IMG/VR virus record: IMGVR_UViG_3300020419_001132 | From: a virus | Lineage: Duplodnaviria > Caudoviricetes | Length of the DNA: 64,000 nucleotides | Direction: 5' to 3' (one strand) | Shown here: positions 7,479-64,000 of the stretch, one piece after another | Layout of the letters: each line of letters begins with the position of its first letter | Numbering within the stretch: position 1 is the stretch's first letter | Notes under the pieces: model-generated | Told to the model about the DNA's origin: nothing | Databases searched by the model: none | What the model saw: the letters and a program-made list of their open reading frames with translations, nothing else | Translations under genes and position numbers: made by a program

Positions 7479-7486
7479 TATTTATC
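7479..7486 (-). promoter_or_regulatory. T4-like late promoter box GATAAATA
   Basis: TAAATA core 5 nt upstream of the ATG at 7473. Confidence 0.6.
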
Positions 7487-45371: not shown

Positions 45372-46177
45372 TTTTTTCTCCTATTACTACGATACTTATC
45401 GATAACTTTACGCACTCTAACTAAGCGTGACTTTAATGAATCAAACTTGTAAATTACAGAACTTAATGTATAATTAAAAGATCTTTCCATTTTCCTATCT
45501 TCGTCGGTCGCTTCATCACATATAAAATTAAAATGTGAAGAAACATATGCTTTTCTTGGAATAGGAATGTACTGTATTAAAGGGGTTCCTGCTTTAACTA
45601 GTTCTTCTCCATTTAACACATGCCAAAATAGTTGCACATTAAGAACGTGTGCATATCTAGGATCTAGTAATCCTGTTGCTGGTGTGAATCTTTTTTCATT
45701 TGAATAGTGTACAGGAACTTGTAAAAGTAAGTAATCGTCATCTAATTCTACTCTCCACGGTGTGTGTATTTTCACTACTGTTTTTAAACTTTTACTTGGA
45801 TCATCTAGTATTCTTTCTGTTTGATTTTGATCATGAAAGTCTATATATTTGTCTTGTCCATAACCTTGTTCAAGATTAAATCGTTGGGCTTCGCTATATT
45901 TAAAATTTACACCATCACCGTCTGTTGTAATAATAAAATCTGCAGGTGCTGTTAGTACCCAACCTGCATTTAACATTAATTTTATACCGGGACAATTTTT
46001 TGTAGCAATACTACCGTCGTTTGGATGAGGATTACTAGGTAATTTAATCCAAGGACGTTTTACAGATGCTGTCGGAATAATAGGATGTAAGTCTGCAACA
46101 CCTTCTTGCAAACTATAAAATCTAGCTATAGGTTTCTTTTTTTTAAAAAGATTAAACATCATGCTCGTCAACGCCAC
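45368..46177 (-). CDS. hypothetical protein (DUF6065-like beta-rich fold)
   Basis: CPGI...GWVLTAPAD...KIHTPW...GTPLIQYIPI pattern typical of phage oxygenase clusters. Confidence 0.5.
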   Translation of the reverse strand: MALTSMMFNLFKKKKPIARFYSLQEGVADLHPIIPTASVKRPWIKLPSNPHPNDGSIATKNCPGIKLMLNAGWVLTAPADFIITTDGDGVNFKYSEAQRFNLEQGYGQDKYIDFHDQNQTERILDDPSKSLKTVVKIHTPWRVELDDDYLLLQVPVHYSNEKRFTPATGLLDPRYAHVLNVQLFWHVLNGEELVKAGTPLIQYIPIPRKAYVSSHFNFICDEATDEDRKMERSFNYTLSSVIYKFDSLKSRLVRVRKVIDKYRSNRRKK

Positions 46178-47777: not shown

Positions 47778-47804
47778 ATACAATCATTCCTTTAAATGCT
47801 CGTA

Positions 47805-48093: not shown

Positions 48094-48593
48094 TAGCTAT
48101 CTCCCTTATTGTAGCCCCACCAAGCAGGACATCTTTTCCATGCTGGCATCTGTTCGCTTGAAATTTTCATTGGCTGGTCTACACTAGGTTCTCTAATTTC
48201 ATCATATGCTCTTTGCTCTTCAGGTGATAAGTTTTCTCCAGTTGTCTTATCTGGTGCAGGTATGCTTGTTTTAATTAAATCAATATGATTAACCCAAGAA
48301 CCGCCGGCCATATTATTTGCTTTTATATCGTGATATAACATATCTAATTGTGCGCCTACGTCTCCGTATGCAACTTTTCTTTGCATTTCTCTATCAGGAT
48401 GTGGTTCGTCTCTTTCAACCCAAACCATTTCTCCTTTAGATGGACTATACTCTAGTGTCCACATTAATGTGATGTTGTCGGGTGCATCTACCCATTGAAA
48501 CGTTGCATCAGGGCCATTGTAGATCTCAAAATCATCTCCTGGATCTTCAATTTGCATCACATACCCTGCCGCACCTACGATTGCTTTTTTCAT
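48093..48593 (-). CDS. putative tail-fibre assembly/chaperone-like protein
   Basis: RKVAYGDVGAQLDMLYHDI...WVNHIDLIK motif, directly downstream of three fibre-tip paralogues. Confidence 0.45.
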   Translation of the reverse strand: MKKAIVGAAGYVMQIEDPGDDFEIYNGPDATFQWVDAPDNITLMWTLEYSPSKGEMVWVERDEPHPDREMQRKVAYGDVGAQLDMLYHDIKANNMAGGSWVNHIDLIKTSIPAPDKTTGENLSPEEQRAYDEIREPSVDQPMKISSEQMPAWKRCPAWWGYNKGDS

Positions 48594-49450
48594 TATCTAT
48601 ACTCCGTAATTACGATCATGCCGACTCGTCCATCAGCACCTCTAAAGCCACTAAAGTACCCACCAGTACCTCCACTGCCTGGAGCGGCGTGACTTTGATG
48701 ATTGTGTGAAAAGTTTCCGCCCTGTGGGTGTCCTGCGGCGGTATTACCACCCCAATATGAATGCCCACCTGGACCGTGACTTTGGTGATGACTACCACCT
48801 CCTCCACAGTGGATGTTTAAGTTTCCCCCGGAACCGCTACCACTAACGCCTCCTGAGTGTTGATTATTTCTGTTACCACCATATCCTCCGCCTGCTGATA
48901 GATAAGGTCCAAATGATGAACTTGACCCATTACCAGCACCGCCGGAATAGTAAGTACCACCACCTCCACCACCTATCGTACAATAGACGTTTGATATACT
49001 TGTAACATTAATAATTTCTTCTGAATAGCCTCCAGCACCACCTGACTCTCCGTGACCTCCGCCACCTCCTCCACCGCCCATTACCTGAACGTGAATATAT
49101 CTGGTTCCTGATTGTCTGTACCAAGTAGTACTACCTGTGTATACAGCCTGTCTTACTATTCCAAAATTGTTTACCCATTCTAGTCCATTTCCGCTAGAAT
49201 TTGTTCTTAACATATTACCACTACTTCCAATAGAAGTAATGCCAGATCCACCTTTGTTTGTTGCTAGTGTACCTGAGGTTGTATCTGTGTTTAGACCAAC
49301 TGCTCCGGTTCCTATTTTACCAGATGTAACCTGATTGTTTCCAATTTTTCCTGTTTTTACTTCTGAATTTCCAATGTCAGCTGTTTTGACTTGATCATTA
49401 ATCACTGCTGTAGCTGTTAGTTTTTTTAATGTTTGATAATTAAATGCCAT
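48593..49450 (-). CDS. Gly/His-rich fibre-tip (adhesin-like) protein, paralogue C
   Basis: MAFNYQTLKK; polyGly runs; GHGESGG, NRNNQHSGG, GHPQGGNFSHNHQSH. Confidence 0.7.
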   Translation of the reverse strand: MAFNYQTLKKLTATAVINDQVKTADIGNSEVKTGKIGNNQVTSGKIGTGAVGLNTDTTSGTLATNKGGSGITSIGSSGNMLRTNSSGNGLEWVNNFGIVRQAVYTGSTTWYRQSGTRYIHVQVMGGGGGGGGHGESGGAGGYSEEIINVTSISNVYCTIGGGGGGTYYSGGAGNGSSSSFGPYLSAGGGYGGNRNNQHSGGVSGSGSGGNLNIHCGGGGSHHQSHGPGGHSYWGGNTAAGHPQGGNFSHNHQSHAAPGSGGTGGYFSGFRGADGRVGMIVITEYR

Positions 49451-49460
49451 GTGTTAATCC

Positions 49461-50318
49461 TTAATAAAACTCATATACAACGATCATACCGTTTCTGCCA
49501 TTAGCACCTCGAAAGCCACTAAAATATCCACTAGTACCTCCACTGCCTGGTGCGGCATGTCCTTGATGATTGTGTGAAAAATTACCACCTTGTGGGTGTC
49601 CTGCGGCAGTATTACCACCCCAGTATGATGGACCTCCAACGGAAGATCTAGTGTGATGAGCTTGTCCGCCACCACCGTATACATTTAAGTTACCTCCTGA
49701 TCCGTTAACACTAAGTCCGCCTGAGTGTTGATTATTTCTATTTGCTCCATAACCGCCTCCACCTGACAAATAAGGGCCAAATGATGATGATGATCCATTG
49801 CCTGCGGCACCGGAATAATATGTTCCTCCTCCACCGCCACCAATTGTAATAGATACACTACTAATTCCTGTAACATCTAAAACTTCTTCTGCATATCCAC
49901 CGCCACCGCCGGATTCTCCGTGGCCACCGCCACCTCCTCCTCCGCCTACAACGCAGACTTTTACATAACGTACTCCACTTGGTCTACTCCAAGTTGAACT
50001 ACCTGTATAAACACTCATGCTTCTAATTCCGTATGGACGATATTGTAATGCTGATCCGCCATCGTTATATCCTAAAGCATAATAAGCATTACTAGGATTA
50101 CTACTTAAACCTGTACCTCCAGAACTAACAGGTAATGTTCCTGTTACTATCGATCCGGTCATACTAACAGAACCTGTAGCAAGTTTATCAGAAGTTACTG
50201 CGCCATCATTAATATCTGCAGTTTGTACAGTTAAGTTAGCAAGATCTGCTTCTTTAATTTCTCCGTCGATAATTGACTCTGATTTAACTTTTTTTAATGT
50301 TTGATAATTAAATGCCAT
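49461..50318 (-). CDS. Gly/His-rich fibre-tip protein, paralogue B
   Basis: MAFNYQTLKK; the same invariant motifs, HNHQGH. Confidence 0.7.
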   Translation of the reverse strand: MAFNYQTLKKVKSESIIDGEIKEADLANLTVQTADINDGAVTSDKLATGSVSMTGSIVTGTLPVSSGGTGLSSNPSNAYYALGYNDGGSALQYRPYGIRSMSVYTGSSTWSRPSGVRYVKVCVVGGGGGGGGHGESGGGGGYAEEVLDVTGISSVSITIGGGGGGTYYSGAAGNGSSSSFGPYLSGGGGYGANRNNQHSGGLSVNGSGGNLNVYGGGGQAHHTRSSVGGPSYWGGNTAAGHPQGGNFSHNHQGHAAPGSGGTSGYFSGFRGANGRNGMIVVYEFY

Positions 50319-50323
50319 TTTTT

Positions 50324-51175
50324 CTACCTAAAATTTGTAACAACTACAACTCCGTGCCTACCATTAGCTCCTCTAAAGCCACTGTGATAACCGCTTGTGC
50401 CACCACTTCCGTATGCAGAATGGTTTTGGTGATTGTGTGCAAAGTTTCCACCCTGTGGGTGTCCTGCCGCTGTGTTTCCACCGAAAAAGCCCATTCCTCC
50501 GTAACCTGTTCTGTTGTGATGATTTCCACCACCGCCTGTATGAATATTTAGCGATCCACCTGATCCTGAACCACTTACTCCTCCTGAGTGTTGGTTATTT
50601 CTGTTTGCACCGTATCCTAAACTAGCTGATAGATAAGGACCAAATGAACTTGCACCTCCATTACCTCCAGCACTTGAATAATATGTGCCTCCACCTCCAC
50701 CACCTATTGTGACAGATACACTTGATATACTTGAAACATCAATATACTCTTCTGAATATCCTCCAGCACCACCAGATTCTCCGTGACCGCTTCCGCCGCC
50801 ACCTCCACCGCTTACTTGTACCTTAATCCATTTGACTCCACTAGGCCTATTCCAAGTACCATTGCTAGTGTAAACATTCATACTATACAATCCATGTCCT
50901 TGTGAAGTCCAACTACTACCATTTGAAACAATTACACCAGCATTAAATCCTCCTGGATTAGTAGTTCCTGTGCCACCTTTGTTTGTTGGCAATGTTCCTG
51001 AAACCTTATTACTTGCTAGATCAACTGAGCCTGTACCCAATTTATCGCTACTTACTGCATCTGTATTAATCTTATTACTAGTTACTCCTAGTGCTTCTAT
51101 CTGAGTGCCTGTAATAGTTCCATCAACAAATGATTCTGATTTGTATTTTTTTAAAGTTTCGTAGTTAAAAGCCAT
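50324..51175 (-). CDS. Gly/His-rich fibre-tip protein, paralogue A
   Basis: MAFNYETLKK; the same invariant motifs, HNHQNH. Confidence 0.7.
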   Translation of the reverse strand: MAFNYETLKKYKSESFVDGTITGTQIEALGVTSNKINTDAVSSDKLGTGSVDLASNKVSGTLPTNKGGTGTTNPGGFNAGVIVSNGSSWTSQGHGLYSMNVYTSNGTWNRPSGVKWIKVQVSGGGGGGSGHGESGGAGGYSEEYIDVSSISSVSVTIGGGGGGTYYSSAGGNGGASSFGPYLSASLGYGANRNNQHSGGVSGSGSGGSLNIHTGGGGNHHNRTGYGGMGFFGGNTAAGHPQGGNFAHNHQNHSAYGSGGTSGYHSGFRGANGRHGVVVVTNFR

Positions 51176-51993: not shown

Positions 51994-54900
51994 TTATCTT
52001 AACATATAGTTAATTGCTAGTGGTAATCCTACGACCCCACCTTTAAAGTTAACTGTAGCATTGATATTTATCGTAGTACCAGTCACGGTGGTAATCTGAT
52101 TGGTACCAATAAAAATATCTCCAGCTGTTACAGTATTAACGTTTAGTGACGCACCACCGCCACCAATTTGTGCCTCTATGTATGCCTTAACTGCACGTTG
52201 GGTTGGAACAACACTATCTGAATTTGCAGTCATAAACTGATCTGTACTAAATTCTGAAACTGCCGCAGAGTTACCGCCTAGTGTAACCTCTCCCAATGAA
52301 AGTTCTTGTAATCCTGCAATATTAAATGCGTCTGCATTCAATGTAGCAACACCTGTTGCTTGTTCAACGTTAAACAAGTCACCAACTCTAAAGTTACCAT
52401 CTTGGTCAGTTGATGTAAAGAACACCCTACCGCCGTTATTTTGATTAGTTTCTTGAGCTGGTATCGGTGCTATTGCAGGTGTTCCAGGATAATTTGTAGA
52501 TGTAAATCCTCCTGTACCAATATCTAAGAAATCGTGTCCTGTTAAACGTACTTGAGAATATCTAATTCTCATTGTAGTTGGATCACCATGTGGTGGTGAT
52601 AAAGCATGTGTCATGTTAGGCGAAACATTAAGGAATGTTGTATAACTTCCGTCCTGTGTACCAAGGAACGTAACTGTGTTTACTAGTTTGTATACCTGAT
52701 TAGGTATGCTATCAAACACAACATTTGACCCTGGTGTTGGTCTTTCAGTAAGTTGTCTAACTGCAACAAATGTGCCTGTCTGGAAGAAGTCTGCAAAACC
52801 ATTGTTTCCAGTGCTTGACAATTCAGCTGATGCCGCCGCGTATCCACTACCTCTATTAGTAAATGTTGGATTACCTAAACATCCACTTCCTAATCTTACT
52901 GTAGTTTGAACATCAAATACATTGTTAGGATCTGTTATTGTCATTGTAGGTGCACCACTAACATATCCACAACCTGGCTCAACTAATCTTACTTCAAAAA
53001 TCTTTTCACTTGCAACTCCAGCTCTACCAATTGCTGTAACACCTGTTTGCATCCTTGCAATATGTTGTTCTGTTGTACCATTACCTTTGGCCATCCAGTA
53101 ACCTACTTGATTTGGATTACCAAAACAAACTGCCTGGTAACCTGTAATAGCACCATCTGGGTCGCCTATTGCAGTTCTAGTTGTCCAATTTGCTCCGTCT
53201 TCAGTTACTGAAACTGAATTGTATGCTTCTAAATCTGATGCGTTTCCTGGTCCAACTGCCATAAACAGTCCTTGTCCGTACTTAATGTGTGTATACTGTA
53301 CTATACTAGAACCGTCTACGCTTGGAGCTGTAGCATCAATCCAAGTAGCTCCTCTATCCTGACTATATGCCGCTTTGTTGTCGTCACTAGCAATAGTAAT
53401 AAATCTGTTCTTACCAAATGCAACACCCACCCAAGCACTTGTACCTGGTAGTGTAGTAGTTGTCCATGTATCTGCATTATTAAATGCCGCATATGCCGCA
53501 GTAGTTGTTCCGCCTCTAACAGCAACAACTCTTTCTGCCCCATATGCTATGCCTGTATAACCAGTTGTAGCTAATGCATTACTATTCTGTACCCATGTTG
53601 CACCACCGTCACCTGATTCAAAAACATGTCTTGAGCCTTCAAATATTAAGAAGAACTTGTTTTTACCAAAACATATATGTGGTTCTGAATTGTAAGGTCC
53701 GCCTGGAAGATCATTTGCGTTAGTCCAAGTAGTATTGTCTGCACTATACCATACAGGTTTAGTGCTAACACTCGCTTGTGATACAATTACTGTTGAACTT
53801 GTTCTTTCTGTTGACGATCCGTCATTTAATACTCCTGTGCAAAGTTTAACAGATCCTGTAGGTGCTGTTCCTGGTAATGTAGCTGAGGTCCAGTTTGCAC
53901 CAAAGTCTACACTCTTACGAACATCTGCTGATGCACTTGCAACTTCTAGGAATGCTCCTGAAAGGCCTAAGCCATCTGAGTCAACAACAGTTATTGCACC
54001 AGTCGTACTGTTTATACTTGTAACAGTTAGTGTCAAATCATTTGCTGGTGTTGCACCGCCTAAACTTGTTCCTGGTATAACTATTGTGTCGCCCCGTGCA
54101 TATGATGTTCCACCGTTCTGTACTGTTACAACATATTTGCTTGTGTTCCTATAAACTGTAAATCTAGAACTAGTACCAGCTGTTGTTGTCTCTGTACCTT
54201 GAATATTACTATAGATATTTGCTGTTTCACAATACTCCATGTCAGTAGTATTTCTATTTGCACCTAAAACTTGTGCAACTGAGGTATGTGGTGGAGCACT
54301 AAACTCTATGCAAGGTTCTATCAAGTAAATTGATGTTGCATTAGGAGCAACAATAGGTGTTCCTGGATTTAGATGTTCCCAACCAGAGGTTCCGTCATTT
54401 TTAAGTACCGCGGCCAATTTCGCACCACTGTTGTATGTGCTAATTTTACCATACTGTCCTACAGCTTGTCCGCCTGTAATAACAACTCTCATTCCTACAT
54501 ATGCACTATCTGATCTACCATCAGTTGCCGCAATAGTAATTGCAGATGTTGTTCCTGTTTGTGCAGTATTTGTTGTTACAATGTATCCTTTACCGCCTAA
54601 ATCTCCACTGGAATCATCAAGATCTAAAATTCTAATTCTATTAACAGCATTGTCTCTAAACTCGTCTGCTTCAGTTTTTGCTCCAGTACCAGAACCAAAT
54701 ATGCCAATAGCAGATTCTGTGTAATTATTACCTGCATGATCGAATTCAATTGTTATTGGTTGATTACCATCTGTTTCTACTTTTGTTGCAGTAGCTTTGA
54801 ATTGGAATTTGTTATCAACAATTCCTGTTACAGCTATTTCAGTGTTGTCTACACCTTCTGCAACAGATCCAAATGTTCCGTATGAGTTGTTACCATTTGT

Positions 54901-57900
54901 TGCACGTATTCTACCGCCTGCTTCAGCTAAGTAACCAATGTGTGAATAGTAAGTAAACACAGACACAAGCTCAGCTCTACCATTGTTAGTAATCCAAGCA
55001 CCTATACCATCTGATATAACCTGTGTAAAGTCGTTTGACACGATTGAATCGTTACCACCGTTGTGTAATGCACCATCAATCTTTTGACCTATTGCCGCAT
55101 TACCAAATGTAGTTACGTTTTGTACATACGGTGATCTTTCAGTAATCCATACTCTCTTATCATCTGGTCCCCAACCTGGATCAAGTGATGCATAAGCACC
55201 TGCACTAACTCTGCTAGTACCATATGCGTTTGCTTGTAATAAATCACCATTTAAATCTTTAAGTGATTGTAATCTTAATCCTGTTGCATTTCTCAAGTAG
55301 TACATATCTTCTTCTTGAGATCCCATTACAGCATTAATATAATACCTTGCTGAAAATTTTGATCTGTAGTTTGCTGGTAATACAAGTTCAACATCATGTG
55401 AGAAAGAGCATGTATATGGTCTAGTATAATCTTTAGGATAAACTAGATCCCATTTCATTCCATCTACAATTTCTCTAACGTCTCTTGAACATGCAGTTGT
55501 AAATTGATGATCATATATTGGTTGTACAGTACAATTTGATTGGCTTTCAAGAATTGTTTTCTTAGAACCGCCAGGTGTTTCTGAAATTGTAAACTCGTTA
55601 TCATTTACAACTTCTTTAACATAATAAGTTGTTCCTGCAACTAATCCTAAATCTGATACAGAAGTACTAGAGTCTCCTTCGTCTACAAATTTAACTGCAA
55701 GATGTTCTTCTAACCAAGTTGCGTTTTGAGTCATTACAGAGTTTGCAGTAGAACTTACAAAAGTATGGGTATATCTTTGCCCAACTGGTGATGATCCAAC
55801 GTCAACTGTAATTGTATATGTTGTTGCGGCTCTAACTCTTAATAGTGTATCATGGGCCATATCCGAAACTCTTGGATATGGATGATTACTACTATGACCG
55901 TCGAACGAGCAAGTAAACACTAAGCTATCTTTTTTAATTTTTACATGATCGTTAGTTGTAAGGTTGTGTGCTGTAGGAAATGTTAATACCATTATACCTG
56001 TAGTAGCATTGTAAGTTACTGCATTAGGAGTAAAGTTTCTACCAACACTAATCTGTGAACTTGTAACGTTTGTAGATTCAATGGTAGACTTAAAGTGAGT
56101 ATCTACATAACTAGTTGCTTCTTCAACTAAAAACTCTTTGTTAAGTTCGAGCATTCTTTGAGCCGCAAAATTATTAAGTTCTGAAATTTGTTTATTGTTT
56201 GCTTCGTTACCTGCTCCAAAAATTATGTCTGATATCCATTCCCAAGTAAAGTTTATTCCTGAGACCGCAGTTGCATTAAAGTTAACTTTTTTCAGTGCCG
56301 CTTTTCTTTCAAACTCTAAAGCCGCTAATGAAAAATCTTTTTGACTTCCTATAGTTTTTTTAGATGCAGTATTTCGTAGGTATGCATATGCCGCAAACAT
56401 ACTGGCCATATTTGTACCTAACATGAAATCATATCTACACGCATCCACTATGTATTTTAAATCTCTAGTACACTTTGCATGATCGTATACTAGCTTTTGG
56501 TATGTATCACTTATGTATTGTACAACACCTCTAATAGTTTCTTCTAAATCACTTTCTATGTTAGCAAATGCAGTTTGATATTCAGAATCTGCCCAAGTAA
56601 TTGCAGGGTATGTAATAGGTTTAGCTTGTAATACTAATATGCTATCTGCTACACCACTCACAAATGAGTGTGCTGATGTATTTTGAGATTGGCCAACATT
56701 AACAGTAATTGTTGTCGCTGTTTCTGCTGTAATTCTTAATCTTTTCTTATGTGCTGGATCTGTAGATCTTGGATAATCATGATTTGTTGCATTACCGTCC
56801 ATTGCACAAGTAAATCTAATTGCATTATCAGCAATTCTTACTTCGCCGCCTACTTCTAAATTATGAGCACCAATAGTTACAACCATGTCACCTGTGAAGG
56901 GATTATAAGTTGCGCCTGATGGTGTTCTAGTTTGTAAAACATCAAGTGTAAGATCAACACCTGCTTGTACCGAAGCCGCTTCAGTTGCTGTAGCCGCCGC
57001 TCCGTAAGTTACCTGTGTTTCACTGTTTCCTGTTTGTTTTGTGATTGAACTTTCTTGTACAATGTCGTCTAAGATAGACTTCATGTGTGTATATGCACCT
57101 CTTACAACGGCTGTTCCGCTTCCGTCTACACCGTATGTAAGAATTAAGTCGTCATCGATAAAACTATCTGCAATTCTTGACGCCGCTTGATTACCACCAT
57201 ATAGCACGTCATATGCTAACGCATCAATTAGATATTCTGTATCTCTAGTACACTTTGCAACAGTATGAGAATGACTTCCATGATTGACTGCTACCCAAGC
57301 ATTAACGTCTGCTACTATAAATGCTTTATTTCCTATTAACAAGTTTTTAGCATCAACTTTGTCCTGTACAACACCTGCAGGACTCGGTAATGTCAATGCA
57401 TCAGCTACACCGTCTCCTGGTTTAGTATTTGATAATACACCAAGTTCAATAATATTTGTTACTTCGTTAAATGCTGTAGTAATTCTACTTGAAGCATTAC
57501 TTGATCCAGTTGCACTGGATCCATCAGTTGTGACAGAAACTTTTAACAAATCTCTTGCTTTGTTTATTCCAGCAATAGTTTGTGTCATCTGTGTAGATTG
57601 CGTATATTGTGCGTTTCCTCTTTTATAAGAAATACCTGTATATACAGCATTAAAATTTGTACCCATTGCTACGTCATATTTTAAATCTTTAACAATTTTT
57701 CTAATATCTCTTCTGCAATAGTAGCTTTTATGTCTGTATGTTCCGAAGTTTTCACTAACAAAGTCTATAGCATCTTCAGCAATTTCTACAACAGATTCCC
57801 TAAGACTGTTAGAAGCATCTATTAACGCAGAATTTACTCCTGATGTATCAGGATATGTAATACTTGCGGCTGTTGGACCGTTATTAATAATATCAATTAT

Positions 57901-60690
57901 ACCTTGCATCAAAGTAGCAATAGTACTTGCTACGCCTGATGTACTGTTATTTGATCCTGTCTTTTGAGTGTATAAAGAGTTTAACACAGGACTAAGTGTA
58001 AAGTTTTGTCCTACTGTTTGTAAAATTGTTTTTAAGTAGCCATATGCACCTAGTGTAGCAGTTTTTTCTGTTAAGTTTTGTGATAAAACATTTGTACCAC
58101 TCCAGTATGCTAAACCTGCATTTTGCATTTGCCAGTTTCCGCCATAAGTTAAATCATATGCCAATGCATCTAGTATGTAACAAACATCTCTTCTACATTT
58201 TGTTTTACTATATTTTATTGTTGTATAATTTGCAGAAATATATGAAATAATTTCTTCTTGTAAAAATTCTTTGTTTAACAAGATATTATTTCTAGCATAT
58301 CCTTTAGCTGGAGTTGACATATCATACGCAGGAGTGTAAATGGCCTCAACCATTGTTTGAACACCTTTGTCTATGTTACGTTTTATAACTCTACCTAATA
58401 ATTCTGCAGATTTCTTTTCCTTATGATCTCCGATAGGCCATGTTACATCTTGTGTGTTTGTCATTGTAGCTTTTGTTCCGGTTATGCCTGCTCCAGAAAC
58501 TACATGTCCTACAACTTCTGATAATCTATCAATTGCTTTTAAACTCCATTTTGCATCAACTTTTTCAGTTGCAATAGAGTCTGCTTTTGTTTGTGGACTT
58601 ACACTTACTGCACGAAGTTCGTCACCCATTACACAGCAAAGTGCTGGTACTCTAATAGGTAATACTTCTTTATAAGTTCCAGTTGCTACTCTAACAAGTG
58701 TATTCTTTTCGATTCTTGCTGGAACATTTGTATTAACACCTGCTGTAATAGCATCTGTAATAATTTTAATATTAGCATCTATACCAAGTGCAGTAGAAGT
58801 TCCTTCTGCTATTAATGAAGATTGCTTATATTGTACTACTATAGCTGTTGAATTATCACCGTTCGTTGTTTGATAATTTGTTGAAGGATCTGTTTGTGCT
58901 AAAACATTACCTATAACTGTTAATCCATAATTAATAGCGGCAACCGTTTCTTCTTTTTGTCCTTGCAAATAAAAGTTAGGAGCATTGTCAGTATATTCTA
59001 ACGCTGACTCTCTACTTTTAACATTTCCGCCGTGACACAGATCGTATATAATTGCATCAACAATATACCCCATGTCTCTTTCACATTTTGTTTGTTCGTA
59101 TTTGTAAGAACCTGTAAATGGAGAAATAGTATTAGCTACTTGATATTCTACCCATTCTACAATTTCTCTTTGTATAAAAATTCTGTTTAATTCTAAAAGT
59201 CTTCTTGCTTCTGGATACTTTGTGCCATTTTCAATCTGCATACAAGCAAATCTAATCGTTTTGAACGGAGATTCTATTGTTGTACCTCTAACTGGAGCTT
59301 TTGCATCAACTCCGTTTGGTGAAACATAATACACATCTGGATTTTCTCCAAAATATGTCCATTCTGGAACTCCACTATTTGAAACTCTAAGCACCTGTCC
59401 GTCAGTACCAATAGGCAATCTAGTTGGTCCAGATCCACCATAGTAAACCAAGTCACCTGTAGTTGTAAGTACACTTGTTTCAGATCCTGTAACTAACAAG
59501 TTCCAAAATGTTCCTGTACTATCTAAATCTGGTTTAGAGTTTTGTGCTCCACCGCCTGCACCAGTTCTAGTTTCAGTTGAGTAATCATCGCCTTCTGATA
59601 CATGTGATTTTACACAAACATAAGCATTGGTGCCAAATCTTATAACATCGCCAATGACATAATAAGCATCGTCCATCCACTGGCCTCTAAATTTAAATCC
59701 GTAATTTAGTAAGTCCCAATATGTTGTCCAGTCACCTGCATATCCTGGTTCTTTGTTATTACTATCAGCTTTTGCCATGTATGTATGGCCACCTACAGTA
59801 ACAACATCACCTGTTAAATAATCTTGTGAGGAAGAGTCATCACCCCATATTCCTCTAAAATTCATTCCTTTTGAAAATACTTGCCAGTCTGCTGTACTTG
59901 ATGTACACTTAACATCTGTATTTTGTCTAAGTGCAATATACTGATAGCCGCCCCATCTGACTATATCACCTTTTTGGTAGATTCCTCCAGGCGCCCAAAC
60001 ATTTTCAAATTGAATGCCTTCTACAAACTCGCTCCAATTTGCACTATCCCCAGCAAATGTGCTTGAAGTATGTGCTGATGTTGCAATGTATAGTCCACCA
60101 CCGTATTTTACAACGTCATTTACTTTATATCTTATACCTGTTGCCCAAGCAGTTTTATATTCTACTCCAGGATTAAATGAATCCCATTTTGCTTGGTCAG
60201 CTTCTAATCCGCTTGATGCTGAAGCATTTGATGTATGGTGTGTATTACAAACATAAGTTTGTCCTCCATATCTGACTAAATCGTTTGCTTTATATCTTGT
60301 ATTAGTCGACCAAGTGCTTTTCCAATCAAGCCCTGCGCCAAATAAATCCCAATTAGCTATGTCTGCTTCTAATCCAGCAGTTGCAGAAGAGTTTGAAGTG
60401 TGTACTGCTTTAGCTATATAAAGATTTGCACCGTATTTTACAATATCATTATAAACATAAGAAGTACTTATTGCCCAATCGCCCTTCCATGATTGACCAT
60501 CACTTACTAGATTCCATTTTGTTGGTGAAACATCTAAGTCTGTAAAAAAGTCTGCCGCCGCTGTGTGGCCTGTTACACAAATGTATACCCTGCCTCCAAA
60601 GCGTATAACGTCATCTCTATAATAAGATGTGCCAGTTACCCACGCATCTTTCCAAACAAATCTAATTCTACCTAATTTAAATTCTGCCAT
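51994..60690 (-). CDS. giant (2898 aa) tail fibre/baseplate protein: CBM-like repeats, phycobiliprotein-like repeats, beta-helix, Asp-box propeller
   Basis: Seven N-terminal W...Y..xDxV.[YF]G..Y repeats, six C-x-R-D helical repeats, SPYVQN...NDFTQVISDG segment, SxDxGxTW boxes. Confidence 0.75.
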   Translation of the reverse strand: MAEFKLGRIRFVWKDAWVTGTSYYRDDVIRFGGRVYICVTGHTAAADFFTDLDVSPTKWNLVSDGQSWKGDWAISTSYVYNDIVKYGANLYIAKAVHTSNSSATAGLEADIANWDLFGAGLDWKSTWSTNTRYKANDLVRYGGQTYVCNTHHTSNASASSGLEADQAKWDSFNPGVEYKTAWATGIRYKVNDVVKYGGGLYIATSAHTSSTFAGDSANWSEFVEGIQFENVWAPGGIYQKGDIVRWGGYQYIALRQNTDVKCTSSTADWQVFSKGMNFRGIWGDDSSSQDYLTGDVVTVGGHTYMAKADSNNKEPGYAGDWTTYWDLLNYGFKFRGQWMDDAYYVIGDVIRFGTNAYVCVKSHVSEGDDYSTETRTGAGGGAQNSKPDLDSTGTFWNLLVTGSETSVLTTTGDLVYYGGSGPTRLPIGTDGQVLRVSNSGVPEWTYFGENPDVYYVSPNGVDAKAPVRGTTIESPFKTIRFACMQIENGTKYPEARRLLELNRIFIQREIVEWVEYQVANTISPFTGSYKYEQTKCERDMGYIVDAIIYDLCHGGNVKSRESALEYTDNAPNFYLQGQKEETVAAINYGLTVIGNVLAQTDPSTNYQTTNGDNSTAIVVQYKQSSLIAEGTSTALGIDANIKIITDAITAGVNTNVPARIEKNTLVRVATGTYKEVLPIRVPALCCVMGDELRAVSVSPQTKADSIATEKVDAKWSLKAIDRLSEVVGHVVSGAGITGTKATMTNTQDVTWPIGDHKEKKSAELLGRVIKRNIDKGVQTMVEAIYTPAYDMSTPAKGYARNNILLNKEFLQEEIISYISANYTTIKYSKTKCRRDVCYILDALAYDLTYGGNWQMQNAGLAYWSGTNVLSQNLTEKTATLGAYGYLKTILQTVGQNFTLSPVLNSLYTQKTGSNNSTSGVASTIATLMQGIIDIINNGPTAASITYPDTSGVNSALIDASNSLRESVVEIAEDAIDFVSENFGTYRHKSYYCRRDIRKIVKDLKYDVAMGTNFNAVYTGISYKRGNAQYTQSTQMTQTIAGINKARDLLKVSVTTDGSSATGSSNASSRITTAFNEVTNIIELGVLSNTKPGDGVADALTLPSPAGVVQDKVDAKNLLIGNKAFIVADVNAWVAVNHGSHSHTVAKCTRDTEYLIDALAYDVLYGGNQAASRIADSFIDDDLILTYGVDGSGTAVVRGAYTHMKSILDDIVQESSITKQTGNSETQVTYGAAATATEAASVQAGVDLTLDVLQTRTPSGATYNPFTGDMVVTIGAHNLEVGGEVRIADNAIRFTCAMDGNATNHDYPRSTDPAHKKRLRITAETATTITVNVGQSQNTSAHSFVSGVADSILVLQAKPITYPAITWADSEYQTAFANIESDLEETIRGVVQYISDTYQKLVYDHAKCTRDLKYIVDACRYDFMLGTNMASMFAAYAYLRNTASKKTIGSQKDFSLAALEFERKAALKKVNFNATAVSGINFTWEWISDIIFGAGNEANNKQISELNNFAAQRMLELNKEFLVEEATSYVDTHFKSTIESTNVTSSQISVGRNFTPNAVTYNATTGIMVLTFPTAHNLTTNDHVKIKKDSLVFTCSFDGHSSNHPYPRVSDMAHDTLLRVRAATTYTITVDVGSSPVGQRYTHTFVSSTANSVMTQNATWLEEHLAVKFVDEGDSSTSVSDLGLVAGTTYYVKEVVNDNEFTISETPGGSKKTILESQSNCTVQPIYDHQFTTACSRDVREIVDGMKWDLVYPKDYTRPYTCSFSHDVELVLPANYRSKFSARYYINAVMGSQEEDMYYLRNATGLRLQSLKDLNGDLLQANAYGTSRVSAGAYASLDPGWGPDDKRVWITERSPYVQNVTTFGNAAIGQKIDGALHNGGNDSIVSNDFTQVISDGIGAWITNNGRAELVSVFTYYSHIGYLAEAGGRIRATNGNNSYGTFGSVAEGVDNTEIAVTGIVDNKFQFKATATKVETDGNQPITIEFDHAGNNYTESAIGIFGSGTGAKTEADEFRDNAVNRIRILDLDDSSGDLGGKGYIVTTNTAQTGTTSAITIAATDGRSDSAYVGMRVVITGGQAVGQYGKISTYNSGAKLAAVLKNDGTSGWEHLNPGTPIVAPNATSIYLIEPCIEFSAPPHTSVAQVLGANRNTTDMEYCETANIYSNIQGTETTTAGTSSRFTVYRNTSKYVVTVQNGGTSYARGDTIVIPGTSLGGATPANDLTLTVTSINSTTGAITVVDSDGLGLSGAFLEVASASADVRKSVDFGANWTSATLPGTAPTGSVKLCTGVLNDGSSTERTSSTVIVSQASVSTKPVWYSADNTTWTNANDLPGGPYNSEPHICFGKNKFFLIFEGSRHVFESGDGGATWVQNSNALATTGYTGIAYGAERVVAVRGGTTTAAYAAFNNADTWTTTTLPGTSAWVGVAFGKNRFITIASDDNKAAYSQDRGATWIDATAPSVDGSSIVQYTHIKYGQGLFMAVGPGNASDLEAYNSVSVTEDGANWTTRTAIGDPDGAITGYQAVCFGNPNQVGYWMAKGNGTTEQHIARMQTGVTAIGRAGVASEKIFEVRLVEPGCGYVSGAPTMTITDPNNVFDVQTTVRLGSGCLGNPTFTNRGSGYAAASAELSSTGNNGFADFFQTGTFVAVRQLTERPTPGSNVVFDSIPNQVYKLVNTVTFLGTQDGSYTTFLNVSPNMTHALSPPHGDPTTMRIRYSQVRLTGHDFLDIGTGGFTSTNYPGTPAIAPIPAQETNQNNGGRVFFTSTDQDGNFRVGDLFNVEQATGVATLNADAFNIAGLQELSLGEVTLGGNSAAVSEFSTDQFMTANSDSVVPTQRAVKAYIEAQIGGGGASLNVNTVTAGDIFIGTNQITTVTGTTININATVNFKGGVVGLPLAINYMLR

Positions 60691-60737: not shown

Positions 60738-63700
60738 TTAATCTTCCTTCAAAAATAGTCGCATTGCGAGTGGCATTCCAGTAACTCCTGCATATTGTCC
60801 TGCAAAATTTGTAGTTTTCGGAAATTGTATTTCAAACGCTGTTCCCGGCACAGTTCCACTTACGAGTCCGCCATCTCCAGTATGTTGAATAATATCATTT
60901 TCACCGCCTATTTTAACTAAACCTGCTGTTAAGTCATTAGTTTCTATTTCTGATCCACCTTCTGACAATCGTGTTGCTAAGAAAGTTACGACTGCTTTTT
61001 GCGTAGGCACAATGTTATTAGAATCTTCAATAAACAATGGGTCTGTAGAAAATTCTCTAACTACAGTACCACTACCGCCTAATCTAACGCCGCCGAGTGC
61101 TAATTCAGAAAGCCCGTCTAGGTCAAAGAAATCAGCACTAATTGTTACGATGCCAGTTCCTTGTTCAACACTGAACAATTCACCAGCCCTAAAGTTACCA
61201 TCTTGGTCTGTTGATGTATAAAACACCCTTCCACCATCGTCTTCATAAGTTTCATTTTCTGGATAAACATCATATACATTTCCAGCAACATACAGTTCAG
61301 GATAATTTGTTTGTGTAAAGTTACCACTGCCTATGTCAAGAAGATCATGTCCAGAAATTCTACACTGACTATATAGTTCTCTAATTGAAACTGCTGTTCC
61401 GTGAGCTAAATTATCTGAATTTTCCAACTTTGGTGATATCCTAAATAATACTCTTTTAGTTCCATTACCAGACCCGTCATCTCCAAGCTCGGTGACTTTC
61501 ACTGCTGTAAACGCTCTTAGATCTGTTAAATCTTCTGTCGTATCAGTATTCATTACTCCGGTAATAGATATTTGTGCTCCAGGTCCTGGATAAGCTCCTG
61601 ATAATCCTACAACAGTTAAGTCAGTTGAGTTAGATGGTATCTTATCTGCATATCCGTCACCTGTTAAAGTAACAGTTGTTGTACTAGTTCTATAACCTAT
61701 ACCTCTGTTTATAAAGGTTGGTTGTGCAAGTACGCCATCACCTATTCTCATCTGTACCTGAGCGTCTGTTGTTCCTTTGTTGTCAAAAATAGTTAAAGTT
61801 GGCGCACTAGTGTATCCTGAACCAGGATCCCAAATCTTTAAGAAACCAATTACTCCAGTTGATATATTTGCTATAACTTTTGCTTTTGCTCCTTGTCCTA
61901 CTGCTAATGCAGTATTGCCGCCTTTTGCTAATACAAGCCAATTTTTATTATACTTGCCATATGCACAAGAACTAAACTTATTCGAAAATGTTAAATCACG
62001 TTTGGTCCATGTATATCCATCAGGTGATGATGCCGCTATGGTAGTTGGTCCTGTTGTTGCATCTCCTGCTATAATTCTATTTCCAGTATCACACACAGCA
62101 AAAAATACCCCGTTTCCGTATCTTACTTTGTTCCAATTCATGTGTGTAGAATCATCTAGGTTTGGCATGTTAGATGTCTGCCATGTTTCCGTTACCGGAT
62201 CTCCAATGCAGTATATTGCTTGACCAGTATTTTTTGATACTGCTACAAATCTTCCATTACCAAAAGTTAAGTTACACCAGTCATATGCTCCGCCTGGCGT
62301 TGGAAGTTTATCTTCTGTCACTGTCCAAGTAATTCCATCACTAGATGTTGCAATAGCTCTGTCACTTCCAGATAATGCAACCCATTTTCCGTAACCATAA
62401 CTTACACCTTGCCACTGTTTGGAAGATGATGATAAGTCATCTGATGTACTTGCTGGAATACTGGTTTGAGCCCATGTAGTTCCGTTAGCACTATAAAATA
62501 CTCTATTATCATCTTCGCACACTATGATAAATTGTCCATTGGCATAATGTATATCTTTTAGTGGTGCCGAAGAAGGTAGTGTTGTCACAGCCCATGTTTT
62601 TCCTGTTCGACTATAATTTATAACATCAGTAACAGTATTTGATATCGCAACAAATGTTGTTCCGCCGTGTGCTATAGTCTTCCATGTTTGCGTTGATGCA
62701 GTAAATATTTCACTCCAGGATGTTCCGTCATCGGAGTATGCACTATAATTACCTTCAGCTACTGCTAACCATCTTCCTGCAAATCCAGATCCTTGTACAG
62801 TTACAGTAACAATACTGTTTGTACTATCATCAGAAACTGATGCAACTCTTATTATACAATCGTTTGTAGGACTAGTTCCACCTAATGCTGTTCCTGCAAT
62901 AGTAGTAGTATCACCAACTGCATATCCAATTCCAGTACTCTGTAAAACCGCTGTGTATGTAGCACCAGTTTTAATTATTCTAATAACAGCCGGAGCAGGA
63001 GTTGTATCTATAGTTGTTCCAGTACCTGTACTCATCACATTATTATCATATTGTTCTCTTGTCTCTCCCCATGCCGCGTCAACCCATTCCTTAGGTGATG
63101 TAGGCATTGAATTAGGTAATGTTCTAGTATTAACTGTAAACGGTGGTTCAGATACTGTTATCCTTGGTTGAATTCTATATTGTGTATTTGTTTGTAATGA
63201 TGCTGAAATTTCAAATCCAGGAATAATATGATCCCATCCTGCAGTACCGTCTGTGTGTTTATATATTTGTGCTACTTTTGTACTATCGTTGTATGCTTGT
63301 ATATAACCATATTGTCCTGTTCCTACACCAGAGGTTAAAACTATAAGTTGTCCTATGTAATCTGCTGTTACAGCTGAATCATTACTTGCAAGTGTAATAC
63401 TTGTTGTATTTCCTGTTTGTGCATTGTTACCTACATTTGTATAGTTTGCACCACCTATGTTAGCACTATCGTCTGCTTGTATTAATCTTGCTTCGAATAA
63501 TGAGTCGTCTCTAATATCGTCAAATGATGTGTTTACAAAATTTCCAGAACCAACTACATTGATTGATGCAGAGGTATAATTTTCTCCACAATGTCTATAT
63601 TCAAATGCAAGTATTTTATCTGTAACTTCTCCAGCAAACGCAAATGCAACTTCGGCTTCGTTGTTTCTATTATCAACAGTTGCAGTTTTAGGAGTTTCTG

Positions 63701-64000
63701 TAGAATCAATTCCTAATGCTACTGATCCATAATTTCCGTATGAGTTGTTACCGTTAGTAGCTCTTATCTTTCCGCCTGCTTCAGCTAAGTACCCCATGTG
63801 TGCATAATACGTAAACACAGAAACAAGTTCTGCTCTACCATTGTTAGTTATATGAGCTCCTAGGCCATCTGATATAACCTGTGTAAAGTCGTTTGATACC
63901 ATTGACTTGTTACCACCGTTATGCAAAGCACCGTCAATTTTTTGTCCTGTACATGCTGTACCGATTGTTGTTACACCCTGTATATAGGGTGATCTTGTAG
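60738..64000 (-). CDS. second giant fibre/baseplate protein, paralogue of 51994-60690; C-terminal part only
   Basis: The frame is open from the window end (TRSPYIQGVTTIGTACTGQKIDGALHNGG...); shares NDFTQVISDG, RATNGNNSYG and TSTDQDGNFR with the 2898-aa protein. Confidence 0.8.
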   Translation of the reverse strand, partial: TRSPYIQGVTTIGTACTGQKIDGALHNGGNKSMVSNDFTQVISDGLGAHITNNGRAELVSVFTYYAHMGYLAEAGGKIRATNGNNSYGNYGSVALGIDSTETPKTATVDNRNNEAEVAFAFAGEVTDKILAFEYRHCGENYTSASINVVGSGNFVNTSFDDIRDDSLFEARLIQADDSANIGGANYTNVGNNAQTGNTTSITLASNDSAVTADYIGQLIVLTSGVGTGQYGYIQAYNDSTKVAQIYKHTDGTAGWDHIIPGFEISASLQTNTQYRIQPRITVSEPPFTVNTRTLPNSMPTSPKEWVDAAWGETREQYDNNVMSTGTGTTIDTTPAPAVIRIIKTGATYTAVLQSTGIGYAVGDTTTIAGTALGGTSPTNDCIIRVASVSDDSTNSIVTVTVQGSGFAGRWLAVAEGNYSAYSDDGTSWSEIFTASTQTWKTIAHGGTTFVAISNTVTDVINYSRTGKTWAVTTLPSSAPLKDIHYANGQFIIVCEDDNRVFYSANGTTWAQTSIPASTSDDLSSSSKQWQGVSYGYGKWVALSGSDRAIATSSDGITWTVTEDKLPTPGGAYDWCNLTFGNGRFVAVSKNTGQAIYCIGDPVTETWQTSNMPNLDDSTHMNWNKVRYGNGVFFAVCDTGNRIIAGDATTGPTTIAASSPDGYTWTKRDLTFSNKFSSCAYGKYNKNWLVLAKGGNTALAVGQGAKAKVIANISTGVIGFLKIWDPGSGYTSAPTLTIFDNKGTTDAQVQMRIGDGVLAQPTFINRGIGYRTSTTTVTLTGDGYADKIPSNSTDLTVVGLSGAYPGPGAQISITGVMNTDTTEDLTDLRAFTAVKVTELGDDGSGNGTKRVLFRISPKLENSDNLAHGTAVSIRELYSQCRISGHDLLDIGSGNFTQTNYPELYVAGNVYDVYPENETYEDDGGRVFYTSTDQDGNFRAGELFSVEQGTGIVTISADFFDLDGLSELALGGVRLGGSGTVVREFSTDPLFIEDSNNIVPTQKAVVTFLATRLSEGGSEIETNDLTAGLVKIGGENDIIQHTGDGGLVSGTVPGTAFEIQFPKTTNFAGQYAGVTGMPLAMRLFLKED

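What the first reader, a model, noticed from the sequence alone, without database searches (positions are those of the whole stretch)
55429..59088. Six phycobiliprotein-like C-x-R-D repeats inside a 2898-aa virion protein: a possible bilin-binding phage particle
Seen in sequence: six 22-aa repeats. 59023-59088 KCERDMGYIVDAIIYDLCHGGN; 58135-58200 KCRRDVCYILDALAYDLTYGGN; 57655-57720 YCRRDIRKIVKDLKYDVAMGTN; 57190-57255 KCTRDTEYLIDALAYDVLYGGN; 56410-56475 KCTRDLKYIVDACRYDFMLGTN; 55429-55494 ACSRDVREIVDGMKWDL. Several are preceded by a helix of the form LL.LN..FI..E, e.g. ARRLLELNRIFIQREI. Established: the chromophore helix of alpha-phycocyanin reads roughly [22 protein letters not shown] (bilin-attachment Cys, Arg, and the Asp that binds the pyrrole nitrogens), and phycobiliproteins have an upstream A..L..N...I helix. 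The spacing matches position for position, including the GG. Also established: marine phages carry bilin-synthesis genes (ho1/hemO, pebS, pcyA, pcyX, cpeT) whose acceptor proteins are unclear. Inference: these are globin-fold, phycobiliprotein-like domains in a structural protein that could carry tetrapyrroles, for photoprotection, light-gated infection or haem/bilin binding at the host surface.
Basis: partly seen in the sequence, partly recalled or inferred. Interest (0 to 1): 0.9.

Follow-up and report, generated by a model that had tools for sequence, protein, structure and literature searches.

The report
Phycobiliprotein-fold repeats in phage fibre
A giant tail-fibre-like protein of a marine jumbo phage contains a rod of domains with the fold and pigment-attachment motif of cyanobacterial light-harvesting phycobiliproteins, which makes them a candidate acceptor for phage-made bilin pigments, although pigment binding is untested.

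Summary
ORF 51994-60690(-) encodes a 2898-aa tail-fibre-like protein with six C-x-R-D motifs at exactly the stated coordinates; 0.06 are expected by composition. Five sit in complete ~150-aa helical units. The sixth unit is split by a ~195-aa insertion.

The phycobiliprotein likeness is real:
- Profiles of the units searched against all PDB sequences return almost only phycobiliproteins (38 of 39 hits, best E 9e-4).
- The only NCBIfam hit is C-phycocyanin alpha.

The unit defines a large phage family: 1360 representative proteins with up to 35 units each, found in cyanomyoviruses and uncultured aquatic phages. Across ~1600 units, Cys, Arg and Asp are 94-98% conserved. They co-vary with a Tyr, a Gln/Glu and a Thr, which relax together when the Cys is lost, as expected of one functional site.

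Bilin binding itself is untested. A bin holding a close relative of this phage carries both the units and a clpS-hemO-bilin reductase cassette. However, two bilin-reductase phages lack the unit.

The scan reached the same reading on two other genomes. I found no paper describing it.

The parts
51994..60690 (-). 2898-aa tail-fibre-like structural protein (P0001)
   Evidence: ORF list and translation. PHROG tail-fibre and virion-protein families 9851, 5342, 701 and 4527. Neighbouring genes are fibre and fibre-assembly families.
58735..59223 (-). Phycobiliprotein-like unit 1 (aa 490-652; Cys536)
   Evidence: HMM match i-E 6e-43 over profile positions 5-149; motif coordinates.
57868..58320 (-). 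Phycobiliprotein-like unit 2 (aa 791-941; Cys832), the unit that was modelled
   Evidence: HMM i-E 3e-52. AF2 pLDDT 92.7, pTM 0.88. Foldseek and VIA-align best matches are phycobiliproteins. NCBIfam TIGR01338 C-phycocyanin alpha matches aa 819-857.
57430..57843 (-). Phycobiliprotein-like unit 3 (aa 950-1087; Cys992)
   Evidence: HMM i-E 8e-26. Modelled in tandem with unit 2: pLDDT 89.5, pTM 0.87.
56917..57378 (-). Phycobiliprotein-like unit 4 (aa 1105-1258; Cys1147)
   Evidence: HMM i-E 2e-40.
56164..56598 (-). Phycobiliprotein-like unit 5 (aa 1365-1509; Cys1407)
   Evidence: HMM i-E 4e-31.
56053..56184 (-). Unit 6, first part: the A..LL.LN..F...E helix only (aa 1503-1546)
   Evidence: HMM positions 7-35, conditional E 3.6e-5.
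55429..55524 (-). Unit 6, second part: the C-x-R-D helix only (aa 1723-1754; Cys1734). About 195 aa are inserted between the two parts, and the GGN is replaced.
   Evidence: HMM positions 40-60, conditional E 3.5e-5; motif.
59491..60690 (-). N-terminal array of CBM_5_12-like carbohydrate-binding repeats (about aa 1-400)
   Evidence: Pfam PF02839, E 4e-25, four stretches. PDB sequence matches to chitin-binding modules.
51997..55428 (-). C-terminal part (aa 1755-2898): beta-rich fibre region with weak BNR/sortilin-like matches
   Evidence: PHROG 17885 and 3442 matches at aa 1845-1953. Weak Pfam Sortilin-Vps10 and BNR hits. The beta-helix character is my reading of the sequence only.

Best explanation
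The gene encodes a tail-fibre-like virion protein of a marine jumbo myovirus of roughly 350 kb. Between an N-terminal carbohydrate-binding array and a beta-rich C-terminal part it carries five complete all-helical units of about 150 aa, plus one split unit.

Shown: each unit is a divergent member of the bilin-binding globin lineage (phycobiliproteins and their BBAG paralogues). It lacks the N-terminal X-Y hairpin and is joined head to tail into what the model predicts as a rigid rod.

Shown: each unit keeps the chromophore site at the start of the helix equivalent to phycobiliprotein helix E. This comprises the thioether Cys plus the Arg and Asp that hold the bilin in phycobiliproteins. The site also behaves as one coupled unit with a Tyr, a Gln/Glu and a Thr further on.

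Inferred: the units attach a linear tetrapyrrole covalently and without a lyase, as BBAG-1/-3 do. The pigment would be made in the infected cell by the phage's own hemO-pcyX cassette, or by the host in the case of cyanophages. Virions would then carry bilins on their fibres.

My odds: shared fold and common ancestry with phycobiliproteins/BBAGs about 0.9; a conserved functional site at the Cys about 0.75; a bilin as its ligand about 0.45. The confidence given for this explanation is that of the whole chain, including bilin binding.
For: Fold and homology:
- A profile of the five units against 177,635 PDB sequences gave 31 hits at E<=10, all phycobiliproteins.
- A 138-unit profile gave 38 of 39 hits as phycobiliproteins, best E 9.4e-4. 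The alignments cover the upstream helix, the loop and the Cys84 helix.
- The only NCBIfam hit of the whole protein is C-phycocyanin alpha, E 1.9e-4.
- The AF2 model has pLDDT 92.7.
- In Foldseek, ranks 1-38 are phycobiliprotein-type entries (one, 8u0f, is titled only 'Bacterial fluorescent protein'), with TM 0.53-0.65.

Functional site:
- In 1609 units from 151 proteins, Cys is 94%, Arg 94% and Asp 98% conserved, against 25% mean column identity.
- In units with Cys (n=1444): Arg 97%, Asp 100%, Tyr 99.7%, Gln/Glu 96%, Thr 90%.
- In units without Cys (n=73, from 40 proteins): 53, 68, 70, 56 and 41% respectively (Fisher p 1e-22 to 1e-32).
- Four other conserved positions do not change, and identity to the consensus outside the site drops only from 0.41 to 0.37.

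Rod: the two-unit model has pTM 0.87.

Context:
- Among deposited phage genomes the units occur only in cyanophages plus 10 'Marine' records (332 records).
- BFVD matches are cyanomyovirus tail and structural proteins.
- Bin G009 holds a TerL 75-82% identical to this window's TerL, 19 unit matches, and a clpS-hemO-FDBR cassette with a 29-nt overlap. This matches an unchecked first-reader note for this genome.
- BBAG-1/-3 carry CXRD and self-attach bilins (PMC10151467).
- The role of phage hemO/pcyX is unresolved (PMC11480375).
Against: - No chromophore was or could be tested.
- Pfam PF00502 does not match any unit, and the sequence scores are marginal.
- The C-terminal half of the unit alone retrieves no phycobiliprotein by sequence. 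Likeness of that half, which forms part of the bilin pocket in phycobiliproteins, therefore rests on the predicted fold only.
- Pelagimyophage Mosig and a complete 218-kb IMG/VR phage carry a bilin reductase but no unit (positive control). Phage bilin synthesis therefore does not require these units.
- No S- or T-type lyase was found in the records of relatives.
- No bilin genes were found in the 69-146 kb fragments of relatives. These are only 20-41% complete.
- The hemO-pcyX cassette of this very genome is known only from an unchecked note.
- Co-occurrence within a metagenomic bin does not prove the genes share one genome.
- The co-variation counts are not phylogenetically independent.
- To my knowledge, coloured cyanophage particles have not been reported.
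Confidence: 0.45

Rival explanations
1. Same ancestry and fold, but purely architectural. A bilin-binding globin was captured by phages and now serves only as a rigid helical spacer in fibres. The Cys, Arg, Asp, Tyr, Gln/Glu and Thr form an internal packing or hydrogen-bond network, and no chromophore is bound.
For: - The units are multiplied up to 35 times per protein, like shaft modules.
- The tandem model is rigid, pTM 0.87.
- The C-terminal half shows no sequence likeness to phycobiliproteins.
- The X-Y hairpin is lost.
- Bilin-reductase phages without units exist.
- No lyase was found.
Against: - A single unpaired Cys kept in 94% of about 1600 units at 25% mean identity is hard to explain by packing.
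- The six residues are lost together while other conserved positions stay. This is the pattern of a ligand or reaction site rather than a core.
- The retained residues are exactly those that hold the bilin in phycobiliproteins (PMC10151467).
Confidence: 0.3
2. The conserved Cys site does chemistry other than bilin attachment. Possibilities include an intramolecular or inter-chain cross-link (disulfide, Cys-Tyr or thioester-type), or binding of another small molecule or host surface component, to stabilise the fibre or fix it to the host.
For: - The co-varying set includes a Tyr (99.7%) and a Gln/Glu (96%) that have no established phycobiliprotein counterpart in my analysis.
- The protein is extracellular, and the window is rich in protein-modifying enzymes (halogenase and 2OG oxygenases).
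Against: - Arg and Asp next to the Cys have a direct precedent only in bilin binding.
- Glu replaces Gln in 38% of units, which argues against a Cys-Gln thioester.
- There is one Cys per unit, and units lie in a rod, so regular disulfide pairing is not obvious.
- No metal-ligand His is conserved.
Confidence: 0.2
3. Convergence: the unit is an unrelated helical bundle that happens to share a short motif with phycobiliproteins.
For: - Sequence E-values are marginal (best 9.4e-4).
- Pfam PF00502 does not match.
Against: - 38 of 39 sequence hits in the whole PDB are phycobiliproteins, and the alignments extend about 57-68 residues beyond the motif.
- Independent reverse hit from the C-phycocyanin alpha model.
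- The top eight structural matches of 48,161 chains are all phycobiliprotein-type domains and cover up to 147 of 161 residues.
Confidence: 0.05

Closest known systems
Phycobiliprotein alpha/beta subunits (Pfam PF00502; C-phycocyanin alpha, phycoerythrin beta, allophycocyanin)
- Collinear sequence match of the upstream helix, the loop and the Cys84 helix.
- K-C-x-R-D...Y..L..GG matches position for position.

   Different: - No X-Y N-terminal hairpin.
- Below every curated family threshold.
- The C-terminal half is not recognisable by sequence.
- An extra invariant Asp (in Y-D), plus a Tyr, a Gln/Glu and a Thr.
- Units are fused in tandem inside a 2898-aa virion protein rather than forming free alpha-beta subunits in discs.
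- Chromophore unknown.
BBAG-1/BBAG-3, bilin biosynthesis-associated globins of heterotrophic bacteria (Rockwell et al. 2023, PMC10151467)
   Same: - Phycobiliprotein paralogues outside photosynthesis that carry the CXRD motif.
- They attach bilins without a lyase and are associated with haem oxygenase and a PcyA-type reductase.
- BBAG-1 POZ53552 appears among the AFDB structural matches.
   Different: - BBAGs are small stand-alone cytoplasmic proteins next to their biosynthesis genes.
- Here the unit is repeated in a structural protein, far from the cassette.
- The structural match to BBAG-1 is weak (E 1.2, TM 0.50).
- No phylogeny was made.
Bilin-binding domain of the phycobilisome core-membrane linker ApcE
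   Different: - One domain per protein.
- It is part of the phycobilisome.
- The remainder of the ApcE protein is unrelated.
Giant tail, tail-fibre and structural proteins of T4-like cyanomyoviruses (e.g. S-PM2 Q5GQW5, S-WAM2 tail protein, P-HM1 'gp7')
   Same: They contain the same unit (BFVD TM up to 0.86; tblastn 25-43% identity). They fall in the same PHROG families.
   Different: They are annotated only as tail or structural proteins. I found no paper noting the phycobiliprotein relationship. The present phage is not a T4-like cyanophage: its TerL is nearest to PA5oct-like and other jumbo phages.

Membership tests
Phycobiliproteins (PF00502) | Globin-like phycobiliprotein fold | tested here: met
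Phycobiliproteins (PF00502) | Sequence match above the curated family threshold | tested here: not met
   No PF00502 hit for the protein or any unit, even at E<=10. TIGR01338 scores 21 bits against a cut-off of 269. The unit profile against PDB reaches only E 9.4e-4.
Phycobiliproteins (PF00502) | Cys84-equivalent in a C-x-R-D motif at the start of helix E | tested here: met
   HMMER aligns the unit's K-C-x-R-D to K-C-A-R-D of C-phycocyanin alpha without gaps. Cys, Arg and Asp are 94, 94 and 98% conserved.
Phycobiliproteins (PF00502) | N-terminal X-Y helix hairpin that builds the alpha-beta monomer | tested here: not met
   Alignments begin at phycobiliprotein residues 24-45 and 37-40. Only about 10 residues separate one unit's last helix from the next unit's first helix.
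Phycobiliproteins (PF00502) | Covalently bound bilin | not testable with these tools
   Needs expression with bilin synthesis genes, Zn-blot, spectroscopy and mass spectrometry.
BBAG-1/-3 bilin biosynthesis-associated globins | CXRD motif in a phycobiliprotein-related globin | tested here: met
   The motif is described for BBAG-1/-3 in PMC10151467.
BBAG-1/-3 bilin biosynthesis-associated globins | Association with haem oxygenase and a PcyA-family reductase | tested here: inconclusive
   Bin G009 holds a TerL 75-82% identical to this phage's TerL, 19 units and a clpS-hemO-FDBR cassette. For this genome itself there is only an unchecked note. Fragments of relatives lack the genes. Two FDBR phages lack the unit.
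BBAG-1/-3 bilin biosynthesis-associated globins | Small stand-alone protein | tested here: not met
   The units are repeats inside proteins of 790-6382 aa. Only 9 short proteins were found, and at least one (P0163) lies in a run of short called genes that looks like a fragmented giant gene.
Haem globins / globin-coupled sensors | Conserved proximal His ligand | tested here: not met
   No profile position has more than 10% His in 1609 units. These families rank below phycobiliproteins.
Phage tail-fibre / virion structural proteins | Match to fibre families and a fibre gene neighbourhood | tested here: met
   PHROG 9851 E 6e-182, plus 5342, 701 and 4527. Flanking fibre and fibre-assembly genes. 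Presence in the particle itself was not tested.

The most novel reading that the evidence does not exclude
Phage particles carry covalently bound bilins on their fibres. The phycobiliprotein-like units self-attach phycoerythrobilin or biliverdin made by the phage's hemO-pcyX cassette, or host bilins in cyanophages. This would explain why phages of non-photosynthetic hosts make 'light-harvesting' pigments and boost tetrapyrrole supply. It could also make fibres light-responsive, as a photoreceptor behind the light-dependent adsorption of some cyanomyoviruses, or as photoprotection.
Probability: 0.35. Interest if true: 0.95.

Novelty: new variant of a known kind. Interest (0 to 1): 0.8.

Why it matters
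Phages have been known for two decades to carry haem oxygenase and bilin reductase genes. For phages of heterotrophs such as the pelagimyophages, no acceptor protein or purpose is established (PMC11480375). Some cyanomyoviruses adsorb only in the light. This does not depend on host photosynthesis, and 'light-sensitive tail fibres' has been offered as an explanation without a candidate molecule (PMC6628666).

A very large, phage-specific family of fibre domains descends from the bilin-binding globins and keeps the attachment site as a coupled functional unit. That gives both questions a concrete, cheaply testable candidate. It also adds a third branch, alongside phycobiliproteins and BBAGs, to the history of bilin-binding globins (PMC10151467).

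If the units bind no pigment, they are still a clear case of a host-type light-harvesting fold recruited as a building block of virions.

Tried and rejected
- Megablast of the gene against deposited phages: no match.
- Pfam on single units at E<=10: no phycobilisome family.
- Profile of the C-terminal half of the unit alone against PDB sequences: no phycobiliprotein, only a pilin and an adhesin fragment at E>0.03.
A narrower alignment, A3, worked.
- Names of the best family members: all are unnamed metagenomic proteins.
- Haem oxygenase and bilin reductase in the nearest record G001 and in five related IMG/VR fragments: none, but these are 20-41% complete.
- The 326-kb ENA contig carrying a short family member could not be searched because the record is not held.
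- Viral contigs related to two PcyX-type reductases were mostly too short to test linkage with fibre genes.
- Pelagimyophage HTVC008M has neither a unit nor a reductase, which is uninformative.
- S- and T-type bilin lyase families: not found in G001, G002, G004, G007 or G009.
- Homotrimer prediction of one unit (three copies): no verdict, score 0.00. It is not used as evidence either way.
I therefore could not measure the pocket, the exposure of the Cys, or the distances between the co-varying residues.
- I could not obtain phycobiliprotein or BBAG sequences through the tools, so no profile-profile comparison or tree was made.
- Haem binding was considered and rejected because no His is conserved.
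Full report
**What is there**

The minus-strand ORF 51994-60690 encodes a 2898-aa protein. It matches phage tail-fibre and virion-protein families (PHROG 9851 at E 6e-182, plus 5342, 701 and 4527). Its N-terminus carries four detectable CBM_5_12 carbohydrate-binding repeats. Its neighbours are another fibre-like protein upstream, and downstream a small fibre-like gene, a tail-protein-like gene and three paralogous fibre-assembly-like genes.

The large terminase in the window is 53% identical to that of Pseudomonas phage PA5oct, and 44-48% identical to other jumbo phages of 350-470 kb. The nearest held record is a 117-kb fragment rated 33% complete. The phage is therefore a marine jumbo myovirus of roughly 350 kb, not a T4-like cyanophage. 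Its host is unknown.

**The observation**

C-x-R-D occurs six times, at Cys 536, 832, 992, 1147, 1407 and 1734. Composition predicts 0.06 occurrences. The motifs lie in true repeats: pairwise BLASTP between their surroundings reaches E 1e-16.

A profile defines five complete units of about 150 aa, at aa 490-652, 791-941, 950-1087, 1105-1258 and 1365-1509. The sixth unit is split. Its first helix is at aa 1507-1535 and its Cys helix at aa 1731-1751, with about 195 residues inserted between them. Nothing recognisable follows.

**Relationship to phycobiliproteins**

- A profile of only the five units, searched against all 177,635 distinct PDB sequences, gave 31 hits at E<=10, every one a phycobiliprotein (best E 0.023).
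- With 138 units from the wider family, 38 of 39 hits are phycobiliproteins and the best E improves to 9.4e-4. The alignments run from the upstream A..L..N helix through the loop (phage Y-D-Q against phycocyanin Y-D-Q) to K-C-x-R-D...GG. They cover 57-68 phycobiliprotein residues, and a few extend to residue 180.
- In the reverse direction, the only one of 18,950 NCBIfam models to touch the protein is C-phycocyanin alpha, E 1.9e-4 and far below its cut-off.
- Pfam PF00502 does not match.
- The C-terminal half of the unit alone retrieves no phycobiliprotein. The sequence signal is therefore confined to the N-terminal half.
- An AlphaFold2 model of unit 2, made without templates from the 138-sequence alignment, is confident (pLDDT 92.7, pTM 0.88).
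- In Foldseek against the PDB, ranks 1-38 are phycobiliprotein-type entries, one of them (8u0f) titled only 'Bacterial fluorescent protein', with TM 0.53-0.65.
- Alignments start at phycobiliprotein residues 24-45, so the X-Y hairpin used for alpha-beta assembly is absent.

I conclude that the unit shares fold and very probably ancestry with the bilin-binding globins (odds about 0.9). It is not a member of PF00502 by that family's own threshold.

**The family**

An exhaustive profile search of 1.84 billion representative proteins found 1360 proteins at E<=1e-3. Among the 150 listed, lengths range from 790 to 6382 aa, with up to 35 units each.

Among deposited phage genomes the units occur in 332 records. 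All are Synechococcus or Prochlorococcus phages or 'Cyanophage', apart from 10 named 'Marine'. BFVD shows the same fold in cyanomyovirus tail and structural proteins, including one of S-PM2.

A pattern-limited scan of 185,579 species genomes found only five loci, in three metagenomic or single-cell bins. They encode giant multi-unit proteins, most likely on co-binned phage contigs; bin G007 alone holds seven T4-like terminase genes. The family therefore appears to be phage-specific.

**The conserved site**

Over 1609 units from 151 proteins, mean column identity is about 25%. Yet Cys is 94%, Arg 94% and Asp 98% conserved. A second Asp (in Y-D) is 99% and a Tyr 30 residues after the Cys is 97% conserved.

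The informative result is co-variation:

| Residue | Units with Cys (n=1444) | Units without Cys (n=73, from 40 proteins) |
|---|---|---|
| Arg | 97% | 53% |
| Asp | 100% | 68% |
| Tyr | 99.7% | 70% |
| Gln/Glu | 96% | 56% |
| Thr | 90% | 41% |

Fisher p values are 1e-22 to 1e-32. In contrast, the Y-D Asp, the G-G-N Gly and Asn, and the upstream Asn are unchanged (p 0.15-1). Identity to the consensus elsewhere falls only from 0.41 to 0.37.

Six residues that are kept together and lost together behave like one ligand or reaction site, not like core packing. The counts are not phylogenetically independent, and I could not check that the six residues are neighbours in space, because model coordinates are not exposed. 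No His is conserved (maximum 10%), which argues against haem.

**Arrangement**

A model of units 2 and 3 together, made with 122 tandem pairs as alignment, has pLDDT 89.5 and pTM 0.87. This indicates a fixed relative orientation, that is, a rod of stacked globin units.

**Bilin supply**

I could not read the rest of this genome, and the related fragments lack haem oxygenase and bilin reductase. First-reader notes of this scan, unchecked, report a clpS-hemO-pcyX unit in this genome with hemO overlapping pcyX by 29 nt, a phage HemC, and a second giant protein with two units.

Independent support comes from bin G009:
- A terminase 75-82% identical to this window's.
- 19 unit matches.
- A contig with ClpS, haem oxygenase and a ferredoxin-dependent bilin reductase in that order, the last two overlapping by 29 nt.

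Bin G007 has three multi-unit fibre contigs and three hemO-reductase contigs, one of them next to a T4-like DNA polymerase. It also holds seven terminases, so it is a mixture.

Against a strict link, pelagimyophage Mosig and a complete 218-kb IMG/VR phage have the reductase but no unit. The positive control for that search worked. No S- or T-type lyase was found in the relatives, so attachment would have to be autocatalytic. BBAG-1 and BBAG-3, which carry the CXRD motif, are documented to attach bilins without a lyase (PMC10151467).

**Mechanism proposed**

Shown:
- A fibre protein with a rigid array of phycobiliprotein-fold units.
- Each unit keeps the bilin-attachment triad as part of a coupled six-residue site.

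Inferred:
- During late infection the units self-attach a bilin through the Cys. The likely bilin is phycoerythrobilin or biliverdin from hemO-pcyX, or host bilins in cyanophages.
- The released particles carry pigments on their fibres.

What the pigment would do is open. Candidates are light sensing that gates adsorption, photoprotection, or simply stabilising the fold. Light-dependent, photosynthesis-independent adsorption of S-PM2 and P-HM1/P-HM2 has been attributed to host receptors and/or tail fibres (PMC6628666), and P-HM1 and S-PM2 have the units. However, nearly all cyanomyoviruses seem to have them, so this is only a lead.

My odds: bilin binding 0.45; purely architectural use 0.30; other chemistry at the Cys 0.20; convergence 0.05.

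**Novelty**

Full-text searches found no paper linking phage fibre or virion proteins to phycobiliprotein-like or globin domains. The library does not cover subscription journals. Within this scan, two follow-up reports on other genomes (e1-5337015, e1-5324153) reached the same fold-level conclusion, so this window is a further member of a recurring feature rather than a unique case.

New here are:
- The co-variation test.
- The tandem-rod model.
- The split sixth unit.
- The jumbo-phage setting.
- The clpS-hemO-reductase link through bin G009.
- The two counter-examples.

Noticed in passing
window 56656-56919 and 55756-56043 (aa 1258-1345 and 1550-1645 of P0001): Two copies of a beta-rich module of about 85 aa. 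One lies between units 4 and 5, the other inside the split unit 6. Both share the pattern H-N-L ... F-T-C-x-x-D-G ... Y-P-R ... V-x-V-G. The first matches PHROG 1276 (unknown function). Neither has a Pfam hit.
   Followed up: partly
window 60738-63998 (minus strand, runs off the window end): The upstream gene is another tail-fibre-like protein (PHROG 9851, 17885). In the nearest record, G001, its frame is 1848 aa and contains one further phycobiliprotein-like unit, which would lie just beyond the window end (G001:95584-96075).
   Followed up: partly
window 48593-51175 (minus strand): Three tandem paralogous genes of 283-285 aa matching PHROG 863 (tail fibre assembly) and the C-terminus of fibre family 21412. 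They lie directly downstream of the giant gene.
   Followed up: no
window 44525-47783 (minus strand): A tryptophan-halogenase-like gene (PHROG 2928, E 5e-150) and a 2OG-Fe(II) oxygenase next to the fibre genes. They could modify virion proteins.
   Followed up: no
window 7485-9065 (minus strand): The large terminase is closest to PA5oct-like Pseudomonas jumbo phages (53%), Sinorhizobium phage Phosso (48%) and jumbo phages of Vibrio, Erwinia, Serratia, Cronobacter and Pectobacterium (about 44%), not to cyanophages. The phage is a jumbo myovirus of unknown host.
   Followed up: partly
G009:C329:16450-19383 (bin with a relative of this phage): The terminase homologue (75-82% identical) is in two pieces about 1.3 kb apart. 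This suggests an intron, intein or homing-endonuclease insertion.
   Followed up: no
window 58360-58551 (aa 714-777 of P0001): A weak match to only the C-terminal half of the unit profile (conditional E 0.0018), between units 1 and 2. It may be a remnant of a degraded unit.
   Followed up: no
L113 (ENA ERZ1699695 contig_5971, 326,593 bp): A 326-kb metagenomic contig carries a short family member among many small called genes with CBM_5_12 hits. It looks like a fragmented giant fibre gene in a near-complete jumbo phage genome. The record could not be searched.
   Followed up: partly
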